NCBI GenBank assembly: GCA_028715965.1
Contig: JAQUQS010000004.1
Location: 61,963-125,962 of the forward strand
Direction: 5' to 3'
Length of the DNA stretch: 64,000 nt
DNA from: Candidatus Omnitrophota bacterium
GTDB taxonomy: Bacteria > Omnitrophota > Gorgyraeia > Tantalellales > Tantalellaceae
The position numbers and the translations under genes are program-made. Below, one piece after another: positions 411 to 22,995 of the stretch (position 1 is its first letter; each line of letters opens with the position of its first letter). The notes beneath the pieces were generated by a model, which had not been told where the DNA came from, did not search any database, and was given only the letters and a program-made list of their open reading frames with translations.

Positions 411-414
411 GAAA

Positions 415-1300: not shown

Positions 1301-1320
1301 CCGGCAACAATACGGGAAAA

Positions 1321-1350
1321 AGGGCAGTCTTGAATGACCTGCCCTTTTTA
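1321..1350 (+). terminator. rho-independent terminator-like hairpin (AGGGCAG..CTGCCCT + TTTTT)
   Basis: 7-bp GC-rich inverted repeat with an 11-nt loop followed by a T-run, directly downstream of the small lipoprotein ORF. Confidence 0.45.
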
Positions 1351-1355
1351 TTTCC

Positions 1356-2300: not shown

Positions 2301-2386
2301 ACAGCCCATTATTTCAAAACTAATATTTGATTTATAAGCTGGTGTGAGATAAACTTATATAAAATGAACATAACTCTAGGGGAGTC

Positions 2387-3079: not shown

Positions 3080-3957
3080 TCTTTAGTCCACTTGCCAGAA
3101 CTCTCAACCTCTGAAAGCAGCATTTCTATCTCCGCCTCTTTTTCCAGATTTGAATTGTTCAGGTCGTTTATTGTTTCTTTCTGGCTTGTGATTATAGCGT
3201 TCAATCGTTCGAGTTCGTGATTTTTAGCGTTCAGGTCCGATATGTGGGTTTTCATCGATGAAGCGTGTTCAGAGGAAAGTTCTTCATATTTGGCGGTAAG
3301 GAACGAGATCATTTCATCCTTTTTCAGCACTGAGCCGGATGTGGTGTCCTCTACTTTTTTCAGGGAGAGACTGTTGTATGCCATTATCGCGAAAAGGAAA
3401 GAGAGAAGTATCGCTCCGGTCAATACTCGCAATAGGGATGTTCTTTTTGGGCGAGGTATCGCGGATAATTTTTCGTTGGTGGTAGCGAACGCGTTATGTA
3501 TCTCATCAAGCCTTTGAGTGAGTGTCTTAGTGTCTTTTTGCAGGTAAGCGATATCAGAAATAGACTTTTCCAGTGTTGTGACGACCGAACGGACCTGTTC
3601 GATCTTTCCCAGCAGAAGCTCGGTTTTCCCGTCTTGTGAATACATATCGATATCCCGGGTGAGGGGGATGTCATGTGTGTGCGGCTGGTCTCCCTGGCTG
3701 TCATCGTCATCGTTGGAGGACAGCCATCCGGAGTTTGGTGCCGGGCCGTCAAAGCCGAGTAAAGTCTCAACATTTATGTTCGGATATTCCCTCTGAACAT
3801 CGTTCTTCAATACATATAAGCTGTTCTCATGATTTATGGCAAGCAGGCGTTTATCTCGTATCTCATCTTTGACTATAGTAGTTGGAACGCCTAAGGCAGT
3901 TGAAAGTCGATTCAACTCGATAAACTCACGACCCAATCCATCTCGATATGTAGTCAT
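3076..3957 (-). CDS. hypothetical protein: N-terminal HTH-like segment, one TM helix, coiled-coil C-terminus
   Basis: GGAGGT RBS upstream of ATG (minus strand). N-terminal LSTALGVPTTIVKDEI looks HTH-like, with a hydrophobic helix LLRVLTGAILLSFLFAIMAY and Q/E/L-rich heptads. Convergent with the response regulator, overlapping it by 4 nt. Confidence 0.4.
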   Translation of the reverse strand: MTTYRDGLGREFIELNRLSTALGVPTTIVKDEIRDKRLLAINHENSLYVLKNDVQREYPNINVETLLGFDGPAPNSGWLSSNDDDDSQGDQPHTHDIPLTRDIDMYSQDGKTELLLGKIEQVRSVVTTLEKSISDIAYLQKDTKTLTQRLDEIHNAFATTNEKLSAIPRPKRTSLLRVLTGAILLSFLFAIMAYNSLSLKKVEDTTSGSVLKKDEMISFLTAKYEELSSEHASSMKTHISDLNAKNHELERLNAIITSQKETINDLNNSNLEKEAEIEMLLSEVESSGKWTKD

Positions 3958-4093
3958 AGTTTTTCTAACCTCCTCAAGATGTAGTATATATTAAATTACC
4001 TATTATGTCAAATTTATAAAATACGCTTATATATATAAAATACATGAAAGTAAATATTAAATAATAATTAACTAAATAAAAATCCAGTTTTAA

Positions 4094-4121
4094 TTGCATT
4101 TCATAACAATCTAAGTATACT
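4094..4121 (+). promoter_or_regulatory. sigma70-like promoter TTGCAT-N16-TATACT for the tpsA-1 leader
   Basis: Near-consensus -35/-10 hexamers with 16-nt spacing in an AT-rich intergenic region, about 40 nt upstream of the riboswitch-like element. Confidence 0.4.
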
Positions 4122-4162
4122 TAATATAGATACTAAAACTGGTTCTTTTAAATGGATTTTTT

Positions 4163-4297
4163 GAAAAAGGCAACCTCCGTGAAAGCGGAAGGGCGCAAAG
4201 CTATAAGAGCCTAAGACCTCAAGGGGTTACGGTAGTCAGCTGCCAAAGAGAGAAGGTATACATTGACCCATGGCTATTATAGTCATGGGTTTTTTTA
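4163..4297 (+). ncRNA. candidate c-di-GMP-I (GEMM) riboswitch aptamer (4163-4244) plus intrinsic terminator (hairpin 4267-4289, U-tract 4290-4296) in the tpsA-1 5' UTR
   Basis: AAAAAGGCAACC..UGAAAG..GGGCGCAAAGCU..GCCUAAG..GGGGUUACGGUAG..CAGCUGCC aligns block by block with the GEMM consensus and the Vc2 riboswitch (GGCAAACC / GNRA loop / GGGACGCAAAGCC / GCCUAA / GGGGUUACCGA / GCUnCC). Followed by a 10-bp hairpin CCCAUGGCUA-UUA-UAGUCAUGGG and U7. Confidence 0.5.
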
Positions 4298-4359
4298 TCC
4301 CCCGTAGCCAGATAGGATATGAGTAGATAGGCGTAGGAGGATTATTTAGGGGCAAAGAG

Positions 4360-7300
4360 ATGAAGATGACGGGACTGCTGAAGAGAACGGTGAGCGTACT
4401 TGTGGTGTTCAGTTTTTTGAACGCTCAGGTGGCGTATTCTCTCCCACAGGACGTTGAGGTGGTGGAAGGCGCGGCGGATGTTAACATAGAAGGCGCGACG
4501 ATGACGATAAACGCCGACGCCGGCACTATCCTGAATTATTCCTCGTTCGACCTTGCCGAGGGGGAGTCAGTGATAATAAACCTGCCGGGGATAGACGCGG
4601 ATATACTTAACCGTGTTATCGGCGCCGGCGCGTCGAACATAGCGGGGGCCATCTCATGTAACGGGCTTTTCATACTCGTGAACACTAGCGGTATATATCT
4701 CGCGTCGACGGCGAATATCGACGTTGGCAGTCTGGTGCTTTCCACGCGGGATATCACTAACTCTGATTTTGTTAACGGGAAGTATTTCTTCCAGAAGATC
4801 TCGGAGGAAGCGCTGGATACGCTCCTTAAGAACGCGGGCACGATAAACGTGCGTGAAGGCGGGTTCGGCGTCCTTATAGCGGGAGCGATAGAGAACTCGG
4901 GTATGATCGTGGCGCCTATGGGGCGTATACACCTGGCCGCGGGAGACGCGGTGACACTCGCGCTTTCGAGTGACGGGCTTATAAGTGTCGCGATAGACGA
5001 GAAGGTGGCGTCGACGATACATGATATGGACGGGAACCCGATAACCGACCAGATAACGAATACCGGTTCGATCATAGCCGACGGCGGGGTAGTGGCTATA
5101 AGCGCCGAGTCGCTCACGGACATATTCAGGAACGCTATAAATCTTGATGGTATAGTGCAGGCGGATACGATGAGTTCTACTGCTGGCGAGATAAGTATAA
5201 CCTCCTCGAGTGATATAACCCTCGGGGGTGGGATATCAGCCGTAGGGGGCATGATAGGAGTGATCTCGGAGGAAGGGTCGATAAGAGCCGAGGAGACATC
5301 GGAGATGACGGCGCAGGACGTATACGTGGAGGCCCAGAGGGACATATCTCTTGAGGGAACGATAGAGACGATGGAAGGTGGGCTTGTCGATCTCCACGCC
5401 CTTAACGGGTCGATGTACTCACATGGTTCCATAATAGCGCCTGAGGGGGAGATAAATGTGTGCGCGGCGTATGACCTTGACCTCGGGGGGTTCTACAAGG
5501 CGAGCCGCATGGTGTTCGACCCTGAGGAAGTGAACATAACGAGCGACTGGACGGGATCAGGGGATACGACGTTCTGGGCGACGGGGAACATAAATGTGCA
5601 GGCTAACATGACGCTGGAGGAAGGTAGCTTTTATTTCTATGCCGATTCCACCGATGCCAGCGGCACATATGACGACGGTTCGGGTACGTTCACGCAAAGC
5701 TCCAGCTCAACTATAACCGCTGATTATGATATATCCATAGACGGCTCCGGGAGCGTATCGGTGGGCGGAATAGTGTCTACTAGCGGTAGTCTTTATGTGG
5801 GGAATGTTACGGGGGATCATACGAATTCTTATGTAGCGGTTGTGAGTGACCTGAATGTTGCCGAAGATATATCATTAAGCTCATCGGGTGGTATCGGTGT
5901 ATATACCGGCAATACCCTGCAGGCCAACAATATGGACATAAACGCTGACATGGACGGTAATGGTACCGGCTCGTTCTCCATGTTTTCCGGAACGGCTTTG
6001 ACGCTTACAGGCGGAGACCTTTCAATAAGCGCGGGGGAGAATAGTACTTTGGAGGATATCTCCGGGGTCGATCTTTTTACGATAGGATCGACCACCGCGG
6101 CAGGGATAAGTTTTACGTGTGACGCGGCGAACACATTCAGCGTGGATACGTTCAAGACACTTGGCGACGGCTCCACGACTTTTGTGAGGGCGGTCGGTGA
6201 TGGGACCAGTATCCCGCGGATGGTATACGATATAACACAGCTTCAGGCGATGCAGGATAACCTCAGTTGGGATTACCAACTTGCCAACAATATAGACGCG
6301 TCGGCGACTGCCGGCTGGAATTCAGGTGAAGGTTTCGTTCCTGTCGGGGATGATGTGTCGAAATTCACGGGCACATTTGATGGGGGGGGTAAAGTGGTCT
6401 CGGGACTTTTTGTGGACACCACACAGTCTTATACCGGCCTTTTTGGATATGTTTCCGGCGCTACATTATCTGACGTCGGGCTAGAAGATATCTCCATAAC
6501 TGCTACTGTGTCGACCGGGTATGCCTATGTGGGCGGCTTATCCGGATATGCCCAGGATACGCTAGTAACTAACGTATATACAACCGGTTCTGTTGATGCT
6601 ATCAGACCAGGTGGGGTTGCGTTTGGCGGTGGGTTAATAGGTTGCAACGAGGCCAGCGCGTTAGGGCAAGAGGCGAATATAACGAGTTCATATTCTTTGG
6701 CTGATGTGTCAGTGAACGCTCACTCTGGTTATGCGGGTGGGTTGATAGCCCAGAATTCCGCGAACGGTGGCGGGTCGGCGGATATCGCGGATTGTTATGC
6801 GACGGGCTCGGTTTCGATGACAGCTTCATCGTTTTATGCTATGGCGGGAGGGTTGGTCGGACAGAATGTGGCGTATGCCTTTGAAGGAGGACCATCGCTT
6901 CCATGTGCCAACATAACGGGTAGTTATGCTACGGGCGAGGTCCAGGCATCTTCAGGCGGAACGGGTGATGTATGCGCGGGAGGGTTAATAGGGTATAACA
7001 CGACCACTGAAGATAATGCGCTCATAACGGATTCGTACGCCACGGGAAATGCTACCGCTTCAGGAGGTACTAGTACTTACGCGGGAGGGCTCATTGCGTA
7101 TAATGACGCGATCTCAAATGGGGACGCGACCATTACAAGGTCGTACGCTACGGGAGACGCGTCGGCTACAGGGGCGGGAACGACATACGCTGGTGGCCTG
7201 GTCGGGTATATGGACGCGGCTATAATGTCCACGGCGGATGCCGTGGATTCTTTTGCTCTGGGAACGGCCACCGCAACGGGCGGCTCGACCAATTATGTTG

Positions 7301-10300
7301 GTGGGCTGGGAGGGTATATTGATATCGATAGGGATGTCTCTACCAGCAGGTGGTATAACGCTTCGAATACTGATGGTGTCGGTTCACTTGCCGATGGGGA
7401 TACGTTGAAAGAAATAGCCGAGTATTTCACTGACGGCAGCTCAGAGATATATACAAACTGGGATTTCACGGTCGATGGGACCGGGGCGGGTTCGGGAACG
7501 TGGATCATGGCGGGTCTGCCGCACCTCCAGATGGAATGGACGGACACCATAACGACCCTGGAAGAGCTGCAGATGATCCTGCTGGACTATGACGTGTCAT
7601 ATACCCTTGCGAATGACATTGACGCGGCGGCGACGACGGGCTGGAATTGGAACAGCACACGTGGCGTGTATGAGGGGTTCAAGCCATTGACGCTTTTCTC
7701 CGCGACATTTGACGGTTCGGGGTATGAGATATCCGGACTTAACATTGACCGTACCGATACCAATATAGGGATGTTCGGAGTGGTCTTTGCCAGTACGATC
7801 CAGGATCTTTCCCTTTCTTCGGCCAGCATAACGCACAGTGACGCCGTAAGTTCTTATAATCTTGGGGGTGTGGCGGGGTTGGCATATAGCGCTTATCTCA
7901 ACGACATATCGTTCTCGGGAACAGTTTCTGGCTCTACCAGTTCAGGTGACGCGTTTATCGGAGGTCTAACTGGATATATGAACGCCGGGGGCGTAAGCGG
8001 GATCAGTACTGCGGGGACCGTAACCGGGGCATCGAGCCTAGGCAAATGCTATGTGGGAGGGGTGATAGGGCAGTTATATACATCGGCCGCGGGGACCATC
8101 GAGGTAACGCTTTCCGATTCTTCTGCCGATGTCTCCGCGGATTCTGTGGGAGGATATAATTTCGTGGGAGGGCTTATCGGGTCCATAGAGCTGGCTGATT
8201 TCAACCTGGGAAGCGTTTGTAACGTTACTGATTCATACGCCACGGGGGACGTTTCCGGTAATACCACATTCACCCATGTTCTCGCCGGGGGACTTATAGG
8301 CAGGCTGTATATCGCGTACAATGCCGATGTTAACGTGGAAGATTGTTACGCCACAGGTGATGTTTCAGCTACGGGAACACAGCAGGCCCGTGCCGGGGGG
8401 TTGATGGGGCAATTTTCCTCAAATGGCGCTGAATCATACGTAACAATGAACAACTGCTACGCTACGGGAGATGTTACGGCGGTGGCCGGACTTACCGATG
8501 AGTATCCCGCTATGGCGGGTGGGCTGATAGGCTTGGTCCGGGCCGACGCGGACGGGACGACCATTATCAATAACTCTTTCGCAACGGGGACCGCTTCGGC
8601 CACGGGAGCCAGGCCGCGTGAATGCGGATTGGTAGGATGGGATGCCGGGGGAGAATACAATGATTGCCTGTGGTTTAACTCCACAAATATACAGGGGATG
8701 TACTTCGAGACACCTGACTCATATGACGGTACGGCGCTGAAGGCCGCCAGTCTTCCGGACCTTTTCGACGCGGATAGCGATCTTTTCTCTACATGGGATC
8801 TTACCGCGGACGGTACCGGCGGACAATGGGTCATACAAAGCAGGGCCGCTCCCCCCGATTTTTACAGGGAATACAACGTATGGACGGGCGGTGGAACGAC
8901 CAATAATTGGTCGGATGCCGCTAACTGGAGCGCCTTAGCCGCACCATCGATCTTTAGCAAAGTACTTTTGAGTTCCGTTAGCACGAAAAGTGTCACATGG
9001 GATTCTGATATCACCGTGGCAAAAATGCATATAGATGCTTCGTACACGGGACAATTGACACAGGGTGACGGGTACGAGCTTACCGCCACGGACGTTTATT
9101 ACCAGGGCGGTGGTACCGTGCGGACATCGGGAACGGACCTTTCTGTCGAGGGAGGTACTTTTGTGCAGGACGGAGGAAGCATCACGCTGGCCAGTGGCGG
9201 GGATATCTACCTGGATAGCGCCGGGTATATGGAGCTTTATGACGTCTCCTGCGGGGACGAAAGCACTATATACTTAGGTTCAAGGGAAGCCCCGAGCTCG
9301 GTAGTCGTGACCGGGACGATAAGCACGTTATATCCCGGTGGGTCCCAAAGCGGTCTTGAGATATATTCCGATGGCGGGATAAGTGTCGAAGGCGCGGTGG
9401 GCGGTTCAACTTATTATTTCGACTCCATCCACCTTTACCTGGACCATGATGATAACTCCGCGCTCAGCAATATACACGGAAGTTTTTACGCTGACCTGGT
9501 ATATGTACTCGCGCAGAACAATATTGTGGTGGACGGCACACTGGCCAATGACGCGGGAGCTCTTTACGTTGGGCAGCCGGGATATACCCCGGATTCTATA
9601 ACCCAGGACGGGAGAGTGCGGGCCGCTACTTATGTGGGAATGTATGCTAACGTGGACATAAACATGTACGATGAACTGTCCTCTAACGCTAGCATGTGGA
9701 TAATGGCCGATTATGACGATAACGGGTCAGGGGCCTTCCGGCAGGTAAGCGGCAGTATAGTTTCATATGGCGACCTATCCATAGATGGTTCCGGGGAGAT
9801 GGTCCTGGGTTATGTTTATCTGGGAGATAGCGCGGACATGACCATAGGAGAATATCGCACTCCGGATATCGTAACGATCGATATTGGTGTGGGCGGTGCC
9901 GCCGGAGGCGGGGACATCTCTATATATTCGAACGGAGATATCAACCTGGGCGGGGATATAGGTTCCGGTTCTACGGTATTCAATAACGTCAGGTTCTACC
10001 CGGACTATGACTCAAATGCCGGGATGAGTACCGTGGGAGGAAATGTATACGCGGATTATTTTTATATCGAGACGGATTCACCGCTGTCCCTTACTGAGAC
10101 CAATGTCTATGGTGGAGGACTTTATGTGGGGGCGTTGGGCAGGGCTCCGATTTCCGTGTCGACCTTGGAGCCTTTATATGGGTTCTATGACATCGATATA
10201 TATTCCGACGGAGATATCCTTATCGGGGACGATATATATGGATATGAAGTTGAGCTGTTCGCGGATTATGATGGCAATGGCACGGGAAGTTTCACCCAGA

Positions 10301-12675
10301 CCGGGGGGATAATCGAGTCATACGGGGATATAGTGATAGACGGTGTAGGGGATATGGATTTGGGCGCCATTACGATAAATGACGGGAGCGATATAATAAT
10401 CGGGTCTTCCAGAAAGCCGAGCTCCGTTACGTTGAACGGGGTGATAACGGGTATCAACGACCCATATCTGGAGATATGTACCAGCGGGAACATATTGCAG
10501 AACGCGGATATCGGAGCGGAAGGCCTGGCGTTCGGTTCCGTTAGGTTCTATATGGATGATGATATGGCCAATGGATACGGCGGATTTATCGCCAATAGCG
10601 GGACTATCTACGCGGATAATGTCGTTCTAGAGGCCCCGGGAGATATGGAATTGGGCGGTATAAGTGTATATGGCGGCGATCTATGGACTTACGGAGATCA
10701 TATTCCCAGCAGCCTTACTTTGACGGGTGATGTAAGTGTCGGGTACGGGGATATATATATAAGCACCCTGGGAAGCTATGACCAGTCCTCATCAGTGGTT
10801 TCCACGACGGGTTCGGGATCGATAAGCATTACGTCCACTGGGACGTCGTATCTTAACGATATTAACGGGGCTGAAGGGATACTTCTTCTGGCCAACAGCG
10901 GCCAAAGCGCGGTTTATAACGCGTCGGATTCGATGTTCAACATTACCGGCGGTATCGGGATATCAAGTAACGTAACTCTTAACGGCCAATCATCGGATAT
11001 CAGGCTCTCGGGAGCTTGGACCAATAGTGGCATATTTAACGCGGGTACATCCATTGTTACTTTCAATGGGGCCGGTACAGGGGCCATTTACGGGTCGAAC
11101 ACTTTTTATGATCTCAAGTGCGTTACTCCAGGCAAGACGTTGAGGTTCGCGGCGGGACGAACCCAGGTAGTATCGGGGGCATTGACGCTTGGCGGGACAG
11201 AAGCTAATAAGGTGATCCTTTCCAGTACTTCCGATGGGACCCAATGGCATATAGACGCGAGAGGGAGCATGTCTATAGCTAATGTTTCGGTAAAAGATTC
11301 GTTCAACGATAAAGGTCTCTATATCGACCCGGCCGGTTCTATTGATAGAGGGGGTAATTCGTACTGGTTCACGCCCTCGGTGCCACAGGATGATCCGGTC
11401 GACAATGACAATAATGTGCCGGGAGAAGGTAGCGAGACACTGGATGAAACCGTTTTGTTGGATGAGGCCCCGGGAGACAACGATATAGGGGACCAGGATA
11501 TGGGGGACGTCGTGAACACCGGACAGGAGACGTCGGGAGATGAAACTAGCATCGAGAACGCGGGTGATGATATGGCCGGCGAGACAGGGGGAGAAGAGGA
11601 TGACCCTGAGCCCACGGTCATGGCCGCTTCCACCTCGGTCGAAGATGGAAGTAGTGATGGCGGCACCTCGACCGATGGGTCCACGGATGAGGATAATGAC
11701 GAAAATAGCGGTGGGACAGATGACGGTTCGGATGATATCTCTGATGAGGACGCCGGCGGGACGATCGTGGATGACGGCGAGGACGAAGAGGGGGACAGTG
11801 GCTCAAAGAAGAAAAAGAGCTCCGGGAATGCGCAGAAGTTGAGCGTTTCAGGAGAGGAAGAAGATGATGCTGAGGGCGCGTCGGCCGGGACTGGCGTAGG
11901 TTCCGAAGAAGATAAAGAGAATAAAAAAGAGAAGACGGAGCGAGGTCCGATGGATCGGCAGAACGTTATTGATGCGTTGTCCGCCAGAGGGTTTACATGG
12001 AATCCTTCGACCGGGACATTCGAAAAAGGGTTCCAACCTGGCGAGTATCACACAAAAGTATTCGTGTTCGAGGGAGAGGTCCTGGTGAATACGTTCAAGG
12101 GCGTAGCGCTTGACCCGTCAAATCTCACGATACTTACTAACGGACAACATATCAGTATTGGTGGAGTTTTTGATGGAGAAAAAGAACTGCTTGCCGGGGA
12201 TGATGGCGTAGAAATCCGGGGTCAGTTGCCTGAACTTGGTGGAGAAGACGGTGAACTCTCGGATATAGTCGGGCGTACGGGCAAGATCACCGCTATAAGC
12301 GGAAAAGTCGATATCATAAAGAAAGCGGGGCAAGAGAACGTTTCGGCACAAATAGGCATGACCCTTGAGGAGGGGGATGTATTGGTGACTGATACGGATA
12401 GCGAGGCGACCATTGAGCTTGCCGGTAAAAAGGGCAAAACAGCCGCGGAAGTTGACCTGTCGGAAAATACCCAGATCATGGTCGATGAGCTTAGTCTTGT
12501 CCCAGATAAGGGTACGGAAGATACCTTGCTGGATATTGCCGTGGGGAAGATACTTGTTAAGGTCGAAAGCCTAAAGGACAGTGGGGGGTCCACTTTTGAG
12601 ATCCAGACACCTACCTCCATCGTAGCGGTAAGAGGGACGGTTTTTACGGTGGAAGTAAGCCCATCCAAAGAATAA
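4360..12675 (+). CDS. two-partner secretion exoprotein TpsA-1 (2771 aa): signal peptide, TPS/haemagglutination-activity domain, GLUG-type repeats, DYDxDGxG repeats, acidic D/E-rich linker, FecR-like C-terminal domain
   Basis: N-terminus (signal peptide; ..ILNYSSFDLAEGESVIINLPG..ILNRVIGAGASNIAGAISCNGLFILVNTSGIY..) matches the FhaB/ShlA-type TPS domain. Central region has reiterated GGLIGYN..SYATGDV blocks (GLUG motif). C-terminus ..VAVRGTVFTVEV fits the FecR domain pattern. A cognate TpsB gene lies downstream. Confidence 0.85.
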   Translation: MKMTGLLKRTVSVLVVFSFLNAQVAYSLPQDVEVVEGAADVNIEGATMTINADAGTILNYSSFDLAEGESVIINLPGIDADILNRVIGAGASNIAGAISCNGLFILVNTSGIYLASTANIDVGSLVLSTRDITNSDFVNGKYFFQKISEEALDTLLKNAGTINVREGGFGVLIAGAIENSGMIVAPMGRIHLAAGDAVTLALSSDGLISVAIDEKVASTIHDMDGNPITDQITNTGSIIADGGVVAISAESLTDIFRNAINLDGIVQADTMSSTAGEISITSSSDITLGGGISAVGGMIGVISEEGSIRAEETSEMTAQDVYVEAQRDISLEGTIETMEGGLVDLHALNGSMYSHGSIIAPEGEINVCAAYDLDLGGFYKASRMVFDPEEVNITSDWTGSGDTTFWATGNINVQANMTLEEGSFYFYADSTDASGTYDDGSGTFTQSSSSTITADYDISIDGSGSVSVGGIVSTSGSLYVGNVTGDHTNSYVAVVSDLNVAEDISLSSSGGIGVYTGNTLQANNMDINADMDGNGTGSFSMFSGTALTLTGGDLSISAGENSTLEDISGVDLFTIGSTTAAGISFTCDAANTFSVDTFKTLGDGSTTFVRAVGDGTSIPRMVYDITQLQAMQDNLSWDYQLANNIDASATAGWNSGEGFVPVGDDVSKFTGTFDGGGKVVSGLFVDTTQSYTGLFGYVSGATLSDVGLEDISITATVSTGYAYVGGLSGYAQDTLVTNVYTTGSVDAIRPGGVAFGGGLIGCNEASALGQEANITSSYSLADVSVNAHSGYAGGLIAQNSANGGGSADIADCYATGSVSMTASSFYAMAGGLVGQNVAYAFEGGPSLPCANITGSYATGEVQASSGGTGDVCAGGLIGYNTTTEDNALITDSYATGNATASGGTSTYAGGLIAYNDAISNGDATITRSYATGDASATGAGTTYAGGLVGYMDAAIMSTADAVDSFALGTATATGGSTNYVGGLGGYIDIDRDVSTSRWYNASNTDGVGSLADGDTLKEIAEYFTDGSSEIYTNWDFTVDGTGAGSGTWIMAGLPHLQMEWTDTITTLEELQMILLDYDVSYTLANDIDAAATTGWNWNSTRGVYEGFKPLTLFSATFDGSGYEISGLNIDRTDTNIGMFGVVFASTIQDLSLSSASITHSDAVSSYNLGGVAGLAYSAYLNDISFSGTVSGSTSSGDAFIGGLTGYMNAGGVSGISTAGTVTGASSLGKCYVGGVIGQLYTSAAGTIEVTLSDSSADVSADSVGGYNFVGGLIGSIELADFNLGSVCNVTDSYATGDVSGNTTFTHVLAGGLIGRLYIAYNADVNVEDCYATGDVSATGTQQARAGGLMGQFSSNGAESYVTMNNCYATGDVTAVAGLTDEYPAMAGGLIGLVRADADGTTIINNSFATGTASATGARPRECGLVGWDAGGEYNDCLWFNSTNIQGMYFETPDSYDGTALKAASLPDLFDADSDLFSTWDLTADGTGGQWVIQSRAAPPDFYREYNVWTGGGTTNNWSDAANWSALAAPSIFSKVLLSSVSTKSVTWDSDITVAKMHIDASYTGQLTQGDGYELTATDVYYQGGGTVRTSGTDLSVEGGTFVQDGGSITLASGGDIYLDSAGYMELYDVSCGDESTIYLGSREAPSSVVVTGTISTLYPGGSQSGLEIYSDGGISVEGAVGGSTYYFDSIHLYLDHDDNSALSNIHGSFYADLVYVLAQNNIVVDGTLANDAGALYVGQPGYTPDSITQDGRVRAATYVGMYANVDINMYDELSSNASMWIMADYDDNGSGAFRQVSGSIVSYGDLSIDGSGEMVLGYVYLGDSADMTIGEYRTPDIVTIDIGVGGAAGGGDISIYSNGDINLGGDIGSGSTVFNNVRFYPDYDSNAGMSTVGGNVYADYFYIETDSPLSLTETNVYGGGLYVGALGRAPISVSTLEPLYGFYDIDIYSDGDILIGDDIYGYEVELFADYDGNGTGSFTQTGGIIESYGDIVIDGVGDMDLGAITINDGSDIIIGSSRKPSSVTLNGVITGINDPYLEICTSGNILQNADIGAEGLAFGSVRFYMDDDMANGYGGFIANSGTIYADNVVLEAPGDMELGGISVYGGDLWTYGDHIPSSLTLTGDVSVGYGDIYISTLGSYDQSSSVVSTTGSGSISITSTGTSYLNDINGAEGILLLANSGQSAVYNASDSMFNITGGIGISSNVTLNGQSSDIRLSGAWTNSGIFNAGTSIVTFNGAGTGAIYGSNTFYDLKCVTPGKTLRFAAGRTQVVSGALTLGGTEANKVILSSTSDGTQWHIDARGSMSIANVSVKDSFNDKGLYIDPAGSIDRGGNSYWFTPSVPQDDPVDNDNNVPGEGSETLDETVLLDEAPGDNDIGDQDMGDVVNTGQETSGDETSIENAGDDMAGETGGEEDDPEPTVMAASTSVEDGSSDGGTSTDGSTDEDNDENSGGTDDGSDDISDEDAGGTIVDDGEDEEGDSGSKKKKSSGNAQKLSVSGEEEDDAEGASAGTGVGSEEDKENKKEKTERGPMDRQNVIDALSARGFTWNPSTGTFEKGFQPGEYHTKVFVFEGEVLVNTFKGVALDPSNLTILTNGQHISIGGVFDGEKELLAGDDGVEIRGQLPELGGEDGELSDIVGRTGKITAISGKVDIIKKAGQENVSAQIGMTLEEGDVLVTDTDSEATIELAGKKGKTAAEVDLSENTQIMVDELSLVPDKGTEDTLLDIAVGKILVKVESLKDSGGSTFEIQTPTSIVAVRGTVFTVEVSPSKE

Positions 12676-12750
12676 CAGCCTCATAATATGTTATAAAATA
12701 AGCACTTAAAAAGTTAATCACAACTTAATCACAAAATAATGGGTTCTTGT

Positions 12751-12778
12751 TTGTATCGTATTAATAGTATGATATACT
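12751..12778 (+). promoter_or_regulatory. sigma70-like promoter TTGTAT-N16-TATACT for the tpsA-2 leader
   Basis: Same architecture as the promoter at 4094-4121; sequence diverges upstream of it and becomes identical downstream. Confidence 0.4.
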
Positions 12779-12819
12779 TAAATTGATACTAAAACCGGTT
12801 CTTTTAAATGGATTTTTTG

Positions 12820-12953
12820 AAAAAGGCAACCTCCGTGAAAGCGGAAGGGCGCAAAGCTATAAGAGCCTAAGACCTCAAGGGGTTACGGTAGTCAGCTGCC
12901 AAAGAGAGAAGGTATACATTGACCCATGGCTATTATAGTCATGGGTTTTTTTA
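12820..12953 (+). ncRNA. second copy of the candidate c-di-GMP-I (GEMM) riboswitch plus intrinsic terminator, in the tpsA-2 5' UTR
   Basis: Nucleotide-identical to 4163-4297 (aptamer about 12820-12900; hairpin 12924-12946; U-tract 12947-12953). Confidence 0.5.
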
Positions 12954-13015
12954 TCCCCCGTAGCCAGATAGGATATGAGTAGATAGGCGTAGGAGGATTA
13001 TTTAGGGGCAAAGAG

Positions 13016-16000
13016 ATGAAGATGACGGGACTGCTGAAGAGAACGGTGAGCGTACTTGTGGTGTTCAGTTTTTTGAACGCTCAGGTGGCGTATTCTCTCC
13101 CACAGGACGTTGAGGTGGTGGAAGGCGCGGCGGATGTTAACATAGAAGGCGCGACGATGACGATAAACGCCGACGCCGGCACTATCCTGAATTATTCCTC
13201 GTTCGACCTTGCCGAGGGGGAGTCAGTGATAATAAACCTGCCGGGGATAGACGCGGATATACTTAACCGTGTTATCGGCGCCGGCGCGTCGAACATAGCG
13301 GGGGCCATCTCATGTAACGGGCTTTTCATACTCGTGAACACTAGCGGTATATATCTCGCGTCGACGGCGAATATCGACGTTGGCAGTCTGGTGCTTTCCA
13401 CGCGGGATATCACTAACTCTGATTTTGTTAACGGGAAGTATTTCTTCCAGAAGATCTCGGAGGAAGCGCTGGATACGCTCCTTAAGAACGCGGGCACGAT
13501 AAACGTGCGTGAAGGCGGGTTCGGCGTCCTTATAGCGGGAGCGATAGAGAACTCGGGTATGATCGTGGCGCCTATGGGGCGTATACACCTGGCCGCGGGA
13601 GACGCGGTGACACTCGCGCTTTCGAGTGACGGGCTTATAAGTGTCGCGATAGACGAGAAGGTGGCGTCGACGATACATGATATGGACGGGAACCCGATAA
13701 CCGACCAGATAACGAATACCGGTTCGATCATAGCCGACGGCGGGGTAGTGGCTATAAGCGCCGAGTCGCTCACGGACATATTCAGGAACGCTATAAATCT
13801 TGATGGTATAGTGCAGGCGGATACGATGAGTTCTACTGCTGGCGAGATAAGTATAACCTCCTCGAGTGATATAACCCTCGGGGGTGGGATATCAGCCGTA
13901 GGGGGCATGATAGGAGTGATCTCGGAGGAAGGGTCGATAAGAGCCGAGGAGACATCGGAGATGACGGCGCAGGACGTATACGTGGAGGCCCAGAGGGACA
14001 TATCTCTTGAGGGAACGATAGAGACGATGGAAGGTGGGCTTGTCGATCTCCACGCCCTTAACGGGTCGATGTACTCACATGGTTCCATAATAGCGCCTGA
14101 GGGGGAGATAAATGTGTGCGCGGCGTATGACCTTGACCTCGGGGGGTTCTACAAGGCGAGCCGCATGGTGTTCGACCCTGAGGAAGTGAACATAACGAGC
14201 GACTGGACGGGATCAGGGGATACGACGTTCTGGGCGACGGGGAACATAAATGTGCAGGCTAACATGACGCTGGAGGAAGGTAGCTTTTATTTCTATGCCG
14301 ATTCCACCGATGCCAGCGGCACATATGACGACGGTTCGGGTACGTTCACGCAAAGCTCCAGCTCAACTATAACCGCTGATTATGATATATCCATAGACGG
14401 CTCCGGGAGCGTATCGGTGGGCGGTGTTGTCTCCAATATGGGAAGCATACATATCGGACAAGTCACAGGCAACCATGATGTGTCGTATATAGGCATGCTT
14501 GGCTCATTGTATGCGAGTAATGAGGTAACGCTTTATTCCGATGGTGATATACACCAAGGTGGGGACATGACAGGTGAGGTCATATATCTGTATCCAGATC
14601 ATGACTCCGATGGCAGCGGCCAGTTCCAGACAAGTTTATCGTATGTCATCAATGGGATGGATCTCTACCTTGACCAGAGCACGGACATAGACATAAGTAA
14701 TTTTAACGCGAATGTGGAATATTTTTATATCGGTAACAACGGGATCACGCCCAGTTCCGTTACGATCGGTGGCGAGAATCATGTGTATGGGACACTCGAC
14801 ATTACTTCCAACGGTGATATCGTCCAGAATGGGACGATCTATTCTGAGGCCGGATACGGGCTTTACCTGCAACCCGATTATGATAACGACGGGAACGGCC
14901 AGTTTATACAAAATTCAGGAAGCATTTGTAACTTTTATGAGATGAGCCTGTATCAGGGTACCAATATCACGCTTGATTATTACATGGACACCTACAATGT
15001 TTACGGGATCAACATATATGGCGAAGGTGAGGTTAACCTCAATGGCGGCATATATGCGACAAGCGATTTGTACGTGTACGCAAATGACGGTATTTCTTTG
15101 GGCGGTCCGCTACATTTCGATTATTACCTTGAGCTAAACGCCGATTATGACAACGATGGGTACGGCAGCTTGGTCGCGAACGGGAACAGCATATCCCCAG
15201 TAAGTTATTTTGATACGGCTAACATAACTACTGCAGGCGATCTTAACGTATCTGACATCGAAAGCCTGTTTTCCGGCGATGTTCCGGCAACTTCTTTGAC
15301 TTTGCGTTCGACCGCAGGCAATATCACACTCGACCAGTATTATGATCCCGAGTTCTTATATTCGCTGCAACTTATAGCGGCTGATGATATCAACTTGAAT
15401 GAGTGGATAGCGTTATCATACGGCAATGTTGGCCTGATCGCCGATTATGACGGAGACGGAGACGGTAATTTCAATTTCTCATCGGCAGGGATAAGCGCGG
15501 GCTCCGTTACTTTCAGTAAGAACAGTGATTTCAGTATCACATCGGATCTTATCTCCGACATAGACGCCAGCAATATCACATTCACGGCCGGCGGGGATTC
15601 CGACCTCTCGGTTGATGCCAGCCTATCATGCAGCGGGGCATTAAATCTACAGGCGGATGGGGATATTTCCATTAATTATGGGGTCAGCACAGGGACCACA
15701 TTTTCGGTCGTTGCCGATTACGACACGGATAATTCCGGGAACGTTATCTGGTATAGCGGGGTGTCCGCGAGTATGGGGACAGGAGGGACGCTGAGATACC
15801 AGCAAGCCGATAGTTTCGCGTATTCGGATGTAACAAGCCGTGTTTATGGACAAACGACAGGAGGGGTCACGTTGAGGTCTACGAACGGTTCGGTGACCGT
15901 GGACCAGGCGATCACGCTCAGGACCGGCATCATCGATCTAAGGGCGGATGAGGACCTGCTTATAAATTCAAATATATCCACCACGAGCTCATCAACTATG

Positions 16001-19000
16001 TATCTTTACGCGGACGCGGAGAACAACGGTTCAGGGGGCTTTATGCAATCGGGGTCGGCTTCTATAACTTCAGGAGGGACCGCCCAGATCGCGCTACGCG
16101 CGGCAGGCACGGGAAGTTTATTGGGCGATATAACGGCCGGCCGGTTATATCTTTACGCGCAGTCAGGTGGCGCCACATATGCGCTCCAGGACGGGTGTAA
16201 TGTGGACCTGAATTATTACACTTCTTCCTATGGTCTTTATGTCGCCAGTAATGCTATATTTAACGGTGGAAATAATACGACCATATCTACGGGAGGAGAC
16301 TGGTGGGTGGACGGCACGTTCAATGGGCAGGGATCTACGGCCATATTGGATGGTACGTATTCCGGCACGAAGGATATACGGATGGACGCGGGCTCATTCA
16401 ATAACCTTACGATAAACGCGAGCGGGACATATTCCCCATATACTTCCACCACGCCTACGGTAGTTGCGGGCGGTGACCTCAGCATCACTGCGGGCATATT
16501 GAGCATGACCACGAACGATCTCGTGGTAGGCGGAGACCTTCTTATCGACGGAGGCGTACTTATCGCCAATGGCGCGGGTGTGGACATTGATGTCGATGGG
16601 GATGTCTTGATCCGCGCGGGGGACTTTTTCGCCCCGACGGGCCTGGACGATGTTTCGTTCACGGTAGGGGGCGGATTTGAAGTATCGGGTGCGGGTGATT
16701 ATTATAACGGCAATGGAAGGGTCGTATTCGATTCATCCGATATAGGGAACGATATCATCCTTACAACCTCCGGGTCCTATTTTTTCAATGACGTAAAGTT
16801 CAGCGGCGGAGGTGAATGGACTCTCACCGGCCTTATGCTGGCCTCCGGTGATCTGTATATGTATGACGGGACGCTCGTCGCCGGAGGACTGATAATAGCC
16901 GCGGATACATTAGCAATGGATGGCGGGAATATCACAAGTGATGGAAATGATGTCGAGATCATCGCTTCGACTTTTACGCAGACAGCGGGGGCGATAACGA
17001 CAACATCAGAAGGGGATGTGAAGATCAGTTCTACCGCTATGCCCGGGGCATTTACTGTCGGGGAGATAAATTCCGATGGTGGTGTTTTCATCGGAGAGAC
17101 CAACGCTCCGGTCACGGTCAGCCAGACATCAGGGACATCAATAACAGCGGTGGGAGATAGAGGCATAGAGATCAGCGCGTCAGGCGATATTACACTGCGG
17201 CAGGTCAATTCCGGAAGTTACGACACGACGATCACGTCAACGGCGGGGTCCATCCTCGACGGGCTTACGGGAGAAAGCGCGAACATAACGGCGGCAGCGG
17301 CTACACTCACGGCGGCTACGGGTATAGGTGTAACTGGAAGCGAGGACCTTGACCTTGACGTGGCGACGCTTGACGCGTCCGTAACGGGTACGGGTGACAT
17401 TTATATATGGGAGGACAGCGCGATAACATTAAGTGATGTTGATACCAGCGCGGGCAAGATAGATATATCATCAGGGGGAACAATGACCGCGACGGATGTC
17501 GTGGCTGGCGATACGGGAGAAGTGTGGCTGACAACGACGAGCGGGAACATACAGGCTGGCGTGATCACGGCTTCCGGGAGCAAGGTAGTTCTCGCAGCCG
17601 CGGGTGCGATAACGGACACGAACGGTGCGAGCGTTAATATAACCGGGAGCACGGTGGACCTTGATGCCGCGACAGGCATAAGTGTGGATACTTCGGTGAA
17701 TAATATCACGGCGGACGTGTCCGGGGTCGGGAATGTCGACATAAGCGAGACAGATGATGTGAACATTAACGGTGTCTCCTCATATGAGGGGGATATCATA
17801 TTGACAAGCGGCGGCGTTATGACCGTTGCCGATGACATATCCGCCACAGGCTTCGGGAATATATCCATGACCGCCGACGGGATGAACCAGACCGGTGGCA
17901 GTATATACGCGCCCGCGGGCGAGATATGGATCGATGGCGCGGGTGATATTGTCCTGGGGGCCATAGAGGCGGCTGGGAATCTGACCATCGGGTCCAATGT
18001 GGCGCCGGATTCCGTGACCTTTAACGAAGATATCCACGCGTATAATAGCATAGACGTTATATCCAACGGGAACATTGACCAGAACGCGGACATATACAGT
18101 GACGGATCGTATGATATCTATCTGCGTCCCGACTATGACGGGGACGGTGCTGGGCAGTATTCGGGCAACGGGCATTCGCTTCTGGTGAACGCGCTTTATA
18201 TCGACCAATCGACCGATATGGTGCTTAACGGGTTTACTCTCCAGAATGGTTATGTGTTAGCCGGCACCCTTAGTGCGCCATCATCAATTACCGTGAACGG
18301 CGATATAAATGGATATTACGCGTTTTACGCGGAAAGTAACGGGAATATCGACGTGAACGCGAATATATACACGCAATATGACCTGTATCTCGACGCGGCC
18401 GGTGATATAAACATAAATTCACTTTTGAGTTCAGGGGACGTGATATCTATAGGGGGATCCATATCGCCATCCTCTGTGACAATAACATCCGCTGGTTCCA
18501 TATATTCGGGGAATACCGTTACAATATCATCCGGCGGTGATCTGGTTTTCGATAACCTGTCAGGGGCGATAGACTCGTATTTCCTGACCGGTAACGCCGG
18601 AAGCGACATAACGGTGGCGAACACCCTCAATATCGGTGTCGGATTATCCCTTGACGCCACGGGCAATATAGATGCCGAGGGCTCGATCGGTGGTATGTCT
18701 GAGACGCTTACCCTTAACGCGGGCGGGTATATTGATATAGCGGGGACCGCTACAGGGATAACCGCTGTAACGATAGACGCTTCGGGTGATGTGACCCTGG
18801 GGGGCATTGACTGCCAGGGAGACCTCGCGATAGGCGGGACGACTTCCCCGGCGAATGTTCACCTTAACGGTAGTAGCACGGTTACGGGTACTAACACGGC
18901 CCAGATCAGTTCGGCCGGGAATGTTGCCTTCAATGGCGATCTTGTCACGATATGTGGTATCACGGTCAGCGCGGTGAATAATGTTACGATAGCTAATAGT

Positions 19001-21109: not shown

Positions 21110-22995
21110 GTCGTTGGTACGGTTAAGGGATCGGTCTCTTTGCGGCGGATCGTCAGGATATTGTTGTCCAGTAGTTCATTTGCCGAAGGGGTCCCGGAAA
21201 GCATGTCGGGAAGACCTTCACGAGGGGTCTCGGAGCGCATACTCTTTATCCTTTCCCATTCCTTGGGCAGGTTCTCCTCGAAAGTAAGGGCGAAATGGAA
21301 ACGCGGGTTCGGGGACTCAGTGGTGGCTTTGTCCGGTCCTATGGGGAACCCCCATTCCAGGCGTAAGAGCGCCTGATTGTACAGACGTATACGTAGTCCA
21401 GCTCCGATGCTGGAATAGTTGACATGTTGTCTCTCCTCATCTTTTCTGGCCGCGCGTTTTTCCCCGTAACCGTAATCCATGAAACACAGGAGGTTCACGT
21501 TGTTACGCAGGCTGTCCTGGGCGTATGGCAGTTTCCATGACTCCGGGATGAACGGGCAGGGGACGAGTAGGTCCAGATTCATTATAAAGCCGTTGTCGGC
21601 CATGTAGTCCTGGGCCGGATATCCGCGTATCGAATCGATACCACCCAGGGAAAGTTGTTCCTGCGACGCGAGTTTTTCTCCGGAGAACTGGGTCTTGATG
21701 TTCAGGGCCGCCTGTAATGAGGCCGGAAATAGTTGCCGGTGTTTTATGTCAAGGTTGAACTTGGTGAAAGTGTTCCCGGCGGTCCCGTTCCTGGAAGAAA
21801 GGGGATGTTTGCGTCTGGCCCCGAACGCGTTAAGCCCCTGGGATAGCTGGGGTGAGATATACGTTATCGCGCCGGGGTTGCGGCTTATGATGTTGCTTTT
21901 GAGCCGGGCGGTACGGAAACGATCGCGTATAAGCGTGCCTTCCTCGGTGGTGGTCACTTTGTCGTTGGAGTCCATGCCCAGCGAAATGTCCCCAAGATAT
22001 TCCGATCTCTTGTACAGGTCCTGGCTGACCGTGAAGCTGGCGCTCTGTGACCTTGACCGTATGCCATAGACAGAGAACTGTTTTCTTGGCGCGGAACGTG
22101 AGTCGGAATATCCGTAAATTATGTTCGTCCCGAAATTTGTTATGGGTACGGAGTGATACATATACATGCCGCTGAAATACTGGCCAAACGTGTATCCGGA
22201 AAGAAAGGTATCATCGACGAAGAGGGCATTATTATGTCTTACTCCGAAACCGTACCTGTCCCCGCCGGTGGAAGGAGCTCCTTCATTGTCGTATGAGAAA
22301 AACCCATGTATGGGGAAGTAAGATGTCGTGTCCAGCATCACGTCGGTAGTTCCTATTTCCTGCCCGGCGATAAGAGTGGCTTTTACGTCCCGGTCGGGAT
22401 TTTTGTTCATGAGTTGCAGGCTCCGGCTCATTTTATCATAACGCAGGACCTGTCCCGGTTTGATGTCCCAGTAGTATTTTACGCGATCGACCTGGTTGGG
22501 GTCTCGGCTTTGTATCTTAAGTTCTCCCATTTTAGCCTCGACCACCCGCAAAGTGACCACGCCGTTCTTGATGTCCTGCGGAGGGAGGAAACAGGCCGCT
22601 ATGACCCCTTTCTTCAGATACTCTTTTTCGATGTTCTTTGTTATCTCCGTGAGCTCCGCCAGGTCGGTATCCTTACCGATGGAATCAGCGAAGAGCGGAG
22701 TGAATTCGTCGGGGGGAAAAGTCTCGGTACCTTCGAGGACCACTTCTTTTAACAGGAAAGTAGGGCCTTGAGGTATGGCTTTTTCCTCTTCCTCGATCTT
22801 TTCGGGTGCCTGGGGAGGCGTTGTCGTGAGTTTTTCCTCGGCTTCCTCGCGGAATGGCCTGTCCACCTCGCGTGTGGCCATGTCTATCGTGCTTTCGCTG
22901 GGGAGAGGCTGGGAGAAACACGCCCGATACACGAGCGTGGACATTAACAATACGAAAACCACCTTTTTAATGAATGATGTGTACATATGATTCAA
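21106..22995 (-). CDS. TpsB outer-membrane transporter (ShlB/FhaC/HecB family, Omp85 superfamily)
   Basis: Signal peptide. POTRA_2-like region (FLLKEVVLEGTETFPPDEF..GKDTDLAELTEITKNIEKEYLKKGVIAACFLPPQDIKNGVVTLRVVEAKMGELKI). Hallmark loop-6 motif EQLSLGGIDSIRGYP. Beta-barrel-like C-terminal half ending ..RFHFALTF. Convergent with tpsA-2; the stop codons overlap by 4 nt. Confidence 0.85.
   Translation of the reverse strand: MNHMYTSFIKKVVFVLLMSTLVYRACFSQPLPSESTIDMATREVDRPFREEAEEKLTTTPPQAPEKIEEEEKAIPQGPTFLLKEVVLEGTETFPPDEFTPLFADSIGKDTDLAELTEITKNIEKEYLKKGVIAACFLPPQDIKNGVVTLRVVEAKMGELKIQSRDPNQVDRVKYYWDIKPGQVLRYDKMSRSLQLMNKNPDRDVKATLIAGQEIGTTDVMLDTTSYFPIHGFFSYDNEGAPSTGGDRYGFGVRHNNALFVDDTFLSGYTFGQYFSGMYMYHSVPITNFGTNIIYGYSDSRSAPRKQFSVYGIRSRSQSASFTVSQDLYKRSEYLGDISLGMDSNDKVTTTEEGTLIRDRFRTARLKSNIISRNPGAITYISPQLSQGLNAFGARRKHPLSSRNGTAGNTFTKFNLDIKHRQLFPASLQAALNIKTQFSGEKLASQEQLSLGGIDSIRGYPAQDYMADNGFIMNLDLLVPCPFIPESWKLPYAQDSLRNNVNLLCFMDYGYGEKRAARKDEERQHVNYSSIGAGLRIRLYNQALLRLEWGFPIGPDKATTESPNPRFHFALTFEENLPKEWERIKSMRSETPREGLPDMLSGTPSANELLDNNILTIRRKETDPLTVPTT

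What the first reader, a model, noticed from the sequence alone, without database searches (positions are those of the whole stretch)
4094..14432. Two giant tpsA genes share a 100% identical 1.6-kb promoter-proximal module (leader plus TPS secretion domain) fused to unrelated passengers
Nucleotides about 4141-5776 and 12797-14432 are identical. They cover the leader RNA, the RBS and the first 470 codons, and even the antisense ORFs match. Further upstream, the promoters are similar but diverged. Downstream of SVSVGG the two proteins are unrelated: GLUG-repeat body versus beta-helix-like DYDxDGxGQF body.

Perfect identity over 1.6 kb next to complete divergence points to gene conversion or recombination, not a recent whole-gene duplication. 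The result is a cassette layout in which one regulated secretion module serves alternative cargoes, with both exported through the single downstream TpsB. The 8.6-kb direct-repeat spacing also allows recombination-mediated deletion, which would leave one chimeric tpsA and work like a phase/antigenic-variation switch. This is reminiscent of CdiA-CT/orphan-module shuffling, but here it is the N-terminal module that is shared.
Basis: seen in the sequence. Interest (0 to 1): 0.75.

Follow-up and report, generated by a model that had tools for sequence, protein, structure and literature searches.

The report
Twin riboswitch-gated secretion modules on tandem giant genes
Two neighbouring giant secreted-protein genes of an uncultivated Omnitrophota bacterium carry a base-for-base identical 1.6-kb front end, made of a c-di-GMP-sensing RNA switch plus the export domain, which was most likely copied recently from one gene to the other so that both stay under the same signal and fit the same export pore.

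Summary
Identity falls to about 40-50% nt on both sides.

The genes are two tandem tpsA genes of 2,771 and 2,697 aa. A single tpsB follows them, but it is convergent rather than co-directional.

Both lie inside the identical tract.

This riboswitch-to-tpsA arrangement is conserved: 46 of 73 Omnitrophota-type tpsA starts with enough upstream sequence have the aptamer, and 16 of 21 base pairs show compensatory changes.

Two other metagenomic contigs show the same pattern at an older stage. Their tandem tpsA paralogues are about 87% nt and 84-90% aa identical over roughly the first 500 aa. One pair (L066) also shares part of its leader. Identity then drops sharply.

The passengers are not unrelated. 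They stay collinear to about aa 577 and share a C-terminal domain at 45% identity.

Best reading: recent gene conversion within a family that homogenises its regulatory and secretion module. There is no evidence for a programmed switch. TpsA pairs with near-identical TPS domains and a single TpsB are already known (MhaB1/MhaB2). I found no published report of c-di-GMP riboswitch gating of TPS genes.

The parts
4094..4121 (+). Putative promoter of tpsA1: TTGCAT, 16-nt spacer, TATACT. Copy B has TTGTAT, 16-nt spacer, TATACT at 12751-12778.
   Evidence: Read from the sequence and the alignment. The -35 hexamer is too weak for the consensus scanner. This is an inference.
4141..5768 (+). Copy A of the exact 1,628-nt repeat: leader with riboswitch and terminator, start region, and codons 1-470 of tpsA1.
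12797..14424 (+). Copy B of the exact 1,628-nt repeat: the same content in front of tpsA2.
4159..4247 (+). c-di-GMP-I riboswitch aptamer, copy A.
   Evidence: Rfam RF01051, 65.6 bits against a gathering score of 35, full-length match 1-87. Covariation in homologous leaders.
12815..12903 (+). c-di-GMP-I riboswitch aptamer, copy B.
4265..4298 (+). Intrinsic terminator, the riboswitch expression platform: 12-bp stem, 3-nt loop, T-run (copy A).
12921..12954 (+). Intrinsic terminator (copy B).
4360..12675 (+). tpsA1, 2,771 aa. Signal peptide, then TPS domain (aa about 27-300). GLUG-motif region: GGL[IV]G motifs at aa 757-1387, Pfam best stretch aa 871-898. D-Y-D-x-D-G repeats at aa 1784 and 1969. 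Shared C-terminal domain (aa 2207-2362). FecR-like end (aa 2674-2767).
13016..21109 (+). tpsA2, 2,697 aa. The first 470 aa are identical to tpsA1. They are followed by a beta-helix-like body with D-Y-D-x-D-G-x-G repeats and the shared C-terminal domain (aa 2476-2639).
21106..22995 (-). tpsB (POTRA_2 plus ShlB/Omp85 barrel), convergent with tpsA2 and overlapping its stop codon by 4 nt. Called as 626 aa in the Logan contigs, which puts the start near 22986.

Best explanation
The locus is a two-partner (type Vb) secretion system of an Omnitrophota bacterium. It has two tandem, independently promoted giant tpsA genes and one convergent tpsB.

Each tpsA is preceded by a c-di-GMP-I riboswitch whose expression platform is an intrinsic terminator. 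Transcription into either gene is therefore gated by the cellular c-di-GMP level. The architecture leans towards an OFF switch, in which ligand favours termination.

The two genes are old paralogues. A recent non-reciprocal recombination event (gene conversion) overwrote about 1.63 kb of one with the other. The tract runs from about 13 nt after the putative transcription start to codon 470. It therefore covers the riboswitch, the terminator, the translation start, the signal peptide, the TPS domain and about 170 aa of the adjoining region.

The same module is homogenised among tandem paralogues in other members of this family, so this looks like a recurring process. It keeps all paralogues under the same signal and compatible with one TpsB, while the passengers diverge.

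Shown: the repeat, the gene identities, the riboswitch and terminator, their conservation, and the recurrence of the pattern.
Inferred: gene conversion as the mechanism, the selective rationale, and the switch polarity.
For: - Exact 1,628-nt identity with sharp drops on both sides.
- Passengers are only 25-45% identical in aa yet collinear and share domains, so the paralogues are far older than the tract.
- The region just upstream (4116-4140) differs at only 3 positions, and the promoter hexamers are similar. This fits older or longer conversion tracts.
- TPS domain and TpsB are identified.
- The riboswitch scores 65.6 bits in both copies, followed by a terminator.
- The aptamer lies upstream of 46 of 73 homologous tpsA starts. 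94% of cells are paired and 16 of 21 pairs show compensatory change. A strong terminator follows 35-70 nt downstream in nearly all leaders examined.
- A related contig (L011+L023) has the same layout, two tpsA then a convergent tpsB, with a riboswitch before each tpsA. Its TPS modules are only 67% identical in aa, so identity is not the ancestral or obligatory state.
- L066 copies 2 and 3 are 86.7% nt and 90% aa identical over part of the leader plus about 510 aa, then about 33% aa.
- The L058 pair is 87% nt and 84-90% aa identical up to about aa 572.
- The L066 and L058 boundaries fall in the same alignment column, about 45 aa beyond the window's boundary.
- A MAG (L012/L015/L018) has three copies with TPS modules 93-97% identical in aa.
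- A Logan contig ends exactly 30 nt into the repeat.
- The window also encodes a GGDEF plus HD-GYP protein, so c-di-GMP turnover is present in this genome.
Against: - No reads were available, so copy number and the 3' junction are not independently verified.
- The donor and the direction of transfer are unknown. GC and GC3 content are uninformative.
- The 3' flank is only about 45% identical in nt, which is little homology to resolve a classical RecA-dependent conversion. A different mechanism, such as template switching or duplication followed by passenger replacement, could give the same picture.
- Passenger orthology across genomes could not be established, so the textbook signature of concerted evolution is incomplete.
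- Switch polarity is weakly supported. Complementarity between the terminator 5' half and aptamer strands is strong in about 9 of 17 leaders but marginal overall (Wilcoxon p = 0.08). It is unremarkable in the window's own leader.
- L003, the one locus shown to have tpsB upstream of tpsA in the same direction, has no riboswitch. In all, 27 of the 73 starts lack one.
Confidence: 0.7

Rival explanations
1. Module duplication with passenger replacement. A recent duplication copied only the leader plus the first 470 codons. Illegitimate recombination then joined the copy onto a different, pre-existing or imported passenger. On this view a 5' end was not overwritten in an existing paralogue.
For: The 3' boundary is very abrupt, with little nucleotide homology beyond it. 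Different passenger types sit behind near-identical modules in L066 and L058. TPS plus GLUG architectures are widespread in other phyla, so passengers do move between contexts.
Against: The two proteins stay collinear and about 31% identical for about 107 aa past the boundary. The upstream promoter regions are also recognisably homologous. Both are expected if an older paralogue was overwritten. Tandem arrays with diverged modules exist (L011/L023, 67% aa), so paralogues with their own modules are the background state.
Confidence: 0.15
2. Assembly artefact. The organism has one module, and the assembler linearised a strain bubble or mis-resolved a loop into a tandem pair.
For: A 1.6-kb exact repeat exceeds short-read insert sizes. 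Neither full-length product is on record in the gene-position collection, although the flanking genes are recorded on a 50-200-kb contig. Logan contigs also break at places that are not repeats within the window.
Against: The junction from the tpsA1 stop through 120 nt of unique sequence with its own promoter-like hexamers into the module cannot arise from a simple bubble. The module must both precede passenger 1 and follow it, which needs two copies on a linear chromosome. A different assembler places a branch exactly at the 5' boundary. Tandem riboswitch-tpsA arrays are common in relatives.
Confidence: 0.07
3. Programmed variation. The direct repeats act as a recombination cassette that switches which passenger is expressed, as a phase or antigenic-variation device.
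For: Direct 1.6-kb repeats 8.6 kb apart can recombine by homologous recombination. Neisseria tpsA genes exchange 3' cassettes by gene conversion (PMC3848433).
Against: Both copies are complete expression units, with no silent cassette. No inverted repeats of 40 nt or more were found in 1-30 kb. The Pfam scans of most of the larger ORFs between about 1 and 53.8 kb found no recombinase. Deletion would remove tpsA1 irreversibly. The older, 87%-identical pairs in L066 and L058 show that arrays persist long after homogenisation.
Confidence: 0.05

Closest known systems
MhaB1/MhaB2 with MhaC of Moraxella catarrhalis
   Same: Two large filamentous-haemagglutinin-like TpsA proteins whose N-terminal region (aa 72-399) is 99% identical. 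Both are secreted through one TpsB (PMC3699455).
   Different: No riboswitch is involved. Whether their leader is also shared was not checked. Here the shared tract is exact, includes the regulatory RNA, and the two genes are tandem.
FhaC of Bordetella bronchiseptica, which transports two substrates
   Same: One TpsB serves two different substrate proteins. The review describes this as a notable exception to one-to-one pairing (PMC3297439). From my own knowledge the substrates are FhaB and FhaS, and they share a similar N-terminus.
   Different: From my own knowledge, those genes are not tandem and are regulated by BvgAS rather than by a cis-acting RNA.
HMW1/HMW2 adhesins of non-typeable Haemophilus influenzae
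   Same: Paralogous TpsA adhesins (PMC3297439). From my own knowledge, their secretion pro-pieces are nearly identical and their binding regions are diverged.
   Different: Each has its own TpsB, at separate loci (PMC3297439). From my own knowledge, phase variation there works through promoter heptamer repeats.
Neisseria meningitidis tpsA / tpsC cassette exchange
   Same: Gene conversion reshuffles parts of a tpsA gene (PMC3848433).
   Different: There the 3' toxin end is exchanged with silent cassettes. Here the 5' regulatory and secretion end is homogenised between two expressed genes.
c-di-GMP-I (GEMM-I) riboswitches with terminator platforms, such as Cd1 upstream of flgB in Clostridioides difficile (from my own knowledge)
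   Same: The same aptamer class (RF01051) followed by a separate intrinsic terminator. That architecture acts as an OFF switch in Cd1.
   Different: The controlled genes are giant TPS exoproteins in Omnitrophota. Full-text searches found no paper linking c-di-GMP riboswitches to TPS genes.
CdrA/CdrB of Pseudomonas aeruginosa (from my own knowledge)
   Same: A TPS adhesin whose expression responds to c-di-GMP.
   Different: Control there is through the transcription factor FleQ and is positive. Here control is by a cis-acting riboswitch and is probably negative.

Membership tests
Two-partner secretion (type Vb) system | TpsA has an N-terminal signal peptide and a TPS secretion domain. | tested here: met
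   PF05860 at 85 bits against a cut-off of 33.5, aa 34-290, in both proteins. TIGR01901. phmmer matches to the TPS domains of EtpA, HxuA and HMW1 over aa about 27-300.
Two-partner secretion (type Vb) system | An adjacent TpsB of the Omp85 superfamily with POTRA domains and a ShlB-type barrel. | tested here: met
   ORF 21106-22995 (-): PF03865 at 114.5 bits, PF08479 at 57.6 bits, PF01103 at 29.2 bits. It is convergent with tpsA2.
Two-partner secretion (type Vb) system | TpsB-dependent export of both TpsA proteins. | not testable with these tools
   Needs secretion assays. It is also unknown whether other tpsB genes exist elsewhere in the genome.
c-di-GMP-I riboswitch (Rfam RF01051) | A full-length match above Rfam's gathering score. 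| tested here: met
   65.6 bits against 35, model positions 1-87, in both copies.
c-di-GMP-I riboswitch (Rfam RF01051) | Helices supported by covariation in homologous leaders. | tested here: met
   19 distinct sequences, 94.3% of cells paired, 16 of 21 pairs with changes on both sides, 0 of 500 shuffles reaching the observed values. Slid controls give 20-39% paired. Caveat: the alignment was fitted to the model.
c-di-GMP-I riboswitch (Rfam RF01051) | A G at the ligand-contacting position before the GGC...GC helix (G20 of Vc2), as opposed to the A of cGAMP-sensing variants. | tested here: met
   The window reads AAAAAGGCAAC, with G at model position 11. Mapping this position to Vc2 G20 rests on my own knowledge of the published structures.
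c-di-GMP-I riboswitch (Rfam RF01051) | Binds c-di-GMP and changes expression. | not testable with these tools
   Needs in-line probing or ITC, and termination assays.
Gene conversion / concerted evolution of paralogues | A tract of (near-)identity bounded by much older divergence within the same gene pair. | tested here: met
   100% over 1,628 nt against about 40-50% nt in the flanks. Passengers are 25-45% identical in aa.
Gene conversion / concerted evolution of paralogues | Modules cluster by genome, while the paralogue array pre-dates the split between genomes. | tested here: inconclusive
   Modules cluster by genome in the window, L066, L058 and the JAGLRU01 MAG. Cross-genome orthology of the passengers could not be shown.
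Cassette-type phase or antigenic variation systems | Silent donor cassettes, or invertible or excisable segments with a dedicated recombinase. | tested here: not met
   Both copies have promoter-like sequences, a riboswitch, a start region and full ORFs. No inverted repeats of 40 nt or more in 1-30 kb. The Pfam scans of most of the larger ORFs found no recombinase.

The most novel reading that the evidence does not exclude
In Omnitrophota, giant TPS exoproteins form a c-di-GMP riboswitch regulon. The aptamer, the terminator and the TPS domain evolve as one homogenised cassette across tandem arrays. New surface or attack proteins are then made by placing new passengers behind a fixed unit that combines sensing with export. 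If the switch is OFF-type, these giants are deployed at low c-di-GMP, which suggests they serve host or prey contact rather than biofilm adhesion.
Probability: 0.3. Interest if true: 0.7.

Novelty: new variant of a known kind. Interest (0 to 1): 0.5.

Why it matters
It links a well-understood second-messenger riboswitch to a secretion pathway it has not been reported with. It does so in a phylum with almost no experimental biology, and it gives a directly testable handle: does this RNA bind c-di-GMP, and does it terminate transcription?

It is also a clean natural example of a regulatory RNA and a secretion signal being kept identical together between paralogues. This bears on how TpsA-TpsB specificity constrains the evolution of paralogues.

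There is a practical side as well. Exact kilobase repeats at the 5' ends of giant genes will fragment short-read assemblies, so copy numbers of such genes in MAGs should be treated with caution.

Tried and rejected
- The third giant ORF (55473-63905, minus strand) was tested as another module carrier. It is unrelated and has no Pfam domain.
- A search for the same species in GTDB genomes and JGI metagenomes with the 470-aa module found nothing. The first alignment query was too diverse to use.
- Exact-product look-ups for TpsB (629 aa), TpsA1, TpsA2 and TpsA2 starting at the second Met were not on record. The 3' junction therefore could not be checked in the Logan contigs.
- A protein search across the junction returned no same-species fragments, only distant GLUG-motif proteins.
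- Inferring the donor from GC or GC3 content, and from which passenger start resembles relatives, was inconclusive.
- A test for a co-evolving anti-terminator was suggestive in about 9 of 17 leaders but not significant overall. Polarity is therefore given only as a leaning.
- Cross-genome passenger orthology, needed for a formal test of concerted evolution, was not resolvable.
- I considered whether truncated TpsA homologues at contig ends reflect exact module repeats. I rejected this, because those contigs run from unique upstream sequence through the module and break later, which fits repeats within the passenger better.
Full report
**Observation**

A base-by-base comparison at an offset of 8,656 nt shows one uninterrupted identical run, window 4141-5768 = 12797-14424, 1,628 nt long. 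BLASTN extends this to 99.8% over 1,653 nt, starting at 4116/12773. Outside the run, 50-nt windows drop to 0.2-0.6 identity (alignments). The 470 identical residues are correct. Apart from an unrelated 194-bp tandem array, no other 31-mer is repeated in the window.

**What the genes are**

- ORF 4360-12675 (2,771 aa) and ORF 13016-21109 (2,697 aa) both carry a TPS secretion domain: PF05860 at 85 bits and TIGR01901. They match the solved TPS domains of EtpA, HxuA and HMW1 over aa about 27-300.
- The identical tract therefore covers the signal peptide, the whole TPS domain and about 170 further residues.
- ORF 21106-22995 on the minus strand is a TpsB, with POTRA_2 and ShlB hits. It is convergent with tpsA2 and overlaps its stop codon by 4 nt, so it is not a downstream operon member.
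- TpsA1 continues with a GLUG-motif region and ends in a FecR-like domain.
- The two passengers are not unrelated. The alignment stays collinear to aa about 577, with about 31% identity past residue 470. A 164-aa C-terminal domain is 45% identical, and both proteins contain D-Y-D-x-D-G-x-G-type repeats.

**The leader**

- The 219 nt before each start codon contain a c-di-GMP-I riboswitch aptamer at 4159-4247 and 12815-12903. It scores 65.6 bits against Rfam's gathering score of 35 and matches the full model.
- Seventeen nt after the aptamer comes a 12-bp hairpin followed by a T-run, at 4265-4298 and 12921-12954.
- The G before the GGC helix is present. From my own knowledge of the Vc2 structures and the cGAMP-sensing variants, this points to c-di-GMP rather than cGAMP.
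- Putative promoters lie just upstream of the tract: TTGCAT-16-TATACT at 4094-4121 and TTGTAT-16-TATACT at 12751-12778. They are similar but not identical. This is an inference.
- The window also encodes a GGDEF plus HD-GYP protein at 39542-41119.

**Organism and relatives**

- The closest homologues of the module are Candidatus Omnitrophota proteins. None exceeds 64% aa identity.
- A covariance model built from four aptamers finds the riboswitch upstream of tpsA homologues in many loci fetched from genomes and metagenomes.
- Overall, 46 of 73 tpsA starts with at least 450 nt of upstream sequence have the aptamer within 700 nt. Some of these loci are duplicates of one another.
- Across 19 distinct aptamers, 94% of cells pair and 16 of 21 pairs show compensatory change. 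Slid controls give 20-39% paired.
- Nearly every leader examined has a strong terminator 35-70 nt after the aptamer.
- Four full-text searches found no paper that connects c-di-GMP riboswitches with TPS genes.

**Switch polarity**

The terminator is self-contained and does not overlap the aptamer. In about 9 of 17 leaders, its 5' half is complementary over 8-12 nt to a strand of an aptamer helix. That is the layout of an anti-terminator that forms only when the aptamer is not locked by ligand, so it predicts an OFF switch.

Against non-cognate aptamers the effect is marginal (Wilcoxon p = 0.08; mean z = -1.45 against shuffles). The window's own leader is unremarkable on this measure. I treat OFF as a leaning of about 60%.

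**Is the identity ancestral, and is it a one-off?**

- Contig JBARQV010000027.1 (L011+L023) has the same layout: two tpsA genes followed by a convergent tpsB that is 47% identical to the window's. Each tpsA has its own riboswitch. Its TPS modules are only 67% identical in aa, or 41% over 650 aa. Identity is therefore not the default state.
- L066 carries three tandem tpsA genes. Copies 2 and 3 are 86.7% nt and 90% aa identical from the leader to about codon 510. Identity then drops within about 100 nt to about 40% nt and 33% aa.
- L058 carries a pair that is 87% nt and 84-90% aa identical up to about aa 572.
- The L066 and L058 boundaries fall in the same alignment column, about 45 residues beyond the window's boundary.
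- One MAG has three copies with TPS modules 93-97% identical in aa.
- A module of roughly 470-570 aa, with at least part of its leader in the window and L066, is thus shared at 100%, about 87% and about 87% nt identity by tandem pairs in three lineages. The passengers differ in each case.

**Mechanism**

A recent whole-gene duplication cannot give 100% identity next to 25-45% aa identity. The collinear residual homology on both sides of the tract indicates that an older paralogue was overwritten, which is gene conversion in the broad sense.

Because there is little nucleotide homology at the 3' edge, I cannot exclude duplication of the module followed by fusion to another passenger.

The selective rationale is inferred from what is established about TPS systems, where the TPS domain is the part recognised by the POTRA domains of TpsB. 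With one TpsB, conversion of the TPS domain is tolerated or favoured, while conversion that extends into the passenger would erase functional diversity. Including the riboswitch keeps both genes under the same signal.

**Artefact check**

- The same organism is present in Logan assemblies of SRR22315506 and SRR22315508.
- Contig L040 matches window 1-4170 at 100% and ends exactly 30 nt into the repeat. Taking Logan's k as 31 (my own knowledge), this is the expected stop at a point where two upstream contexts converge.
- The reads may be the same ones used for the window's assembly, so this is an independent assembler but not necessarily independent data.
- The unique 120-nt junction between the tpsA1 stop codon and copy B cannot come from a simple strain bubble.
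- The 3' junction could not be checked.

**Comparison with known systems**

- Near-identical N-termini in two TpsA proteins served by one TpsB are known: MhaB1/MhaB2 with MhaC, 99% identical over aa 72-399 (PMC3699455).
- FhaC of Bordetella bronchiseptica transports two substrates (PMC3297439).
- Gene conversion in tpsA genes is known at the 3' end in Neisseria (PMC3848433).
- What is new here is the c-di-GMP riboswitch in front of TPS genes, its inclusion in the homogenised unit, and the recurrence of this pattern across tandem arrays in Omnitrophota.
- Nothing supports a programmed phase-variation switch. There are no silent cassettes and no inverted repeats of 40 nt or more in 1-30 kb. The Pfam scans of most of the larger ORFs found no recombinase.

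**Verdict**

The duplication itself is a further instance of a known phenomenon. The riboswitch-gated, co-homogenised module is a new variant of a known kind and of moderate interest.

Noticed in passing
window 53865-54946: A tandem array of a 194-bp unit, 5.5 copies at 88% match. It lies in the intergenic space between the aconitase gene (ends 53806) and the 3' end of the giant minus-strand ORF. No Rfam family reaches its gathering score there. Its function is unknown.
   Followed up: partly
window 55473-63905 (-): A third giant ORF of 2,810 aa with no Pfam hit at E <= 0.001 and no similarity to the two TpsA proteins. Its start lies 95 nt from the window end, so its leader could not be examined.
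   Followed up: partly
window 39542-41119 (+): A protein with a GGDEF domain plus an HD-GYP-type HD domain (PF00990, PF13487). This is a likely enzyme of c-di-GMP synthesis and breakdown, in the same window as the two c-di-GMP riboswitches.
   Followed up: no
L066 8762-8866 and 9384-9516; L072 3435-3531 and 3682-3778: Some related leaders carry two c-di-GMP-I aptamers in tandem in front of one tpsA gene. This could give a steeper or two-threshold response.
   Followed up: no
window 12379-12660 (TpsA1 aa 2674-2767): TpsA1, but not TpsA2, ends in a FecR-like domain. It also gives weak matches to the Leptospira surface adhesins Lsa33, LipL45 and Lsa19. It is preceded by a long acidic low-complexity linker. 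This seems an unusual C-terminus for a TpsA.
   Followed up: no
window 24390; also 14635 and 15743: Logan contigs from two different runs both end at window 24390, inside carB. Others start at 14635 and 15743, inside tpsA2. No 31-mer is repeated within the window at these points. Possible causes are strain variation, low coverage, or repeats elsewhere in the genome or community.
   Followed up: partly
L040 8227-8598 (outside the window, about 4.3 kb before its start): A stand-alone PilZ-domain gene, a c-di-GMP receptor, lies a few kb upstream of the tpsA locus in the same organism.
   Followed up: no
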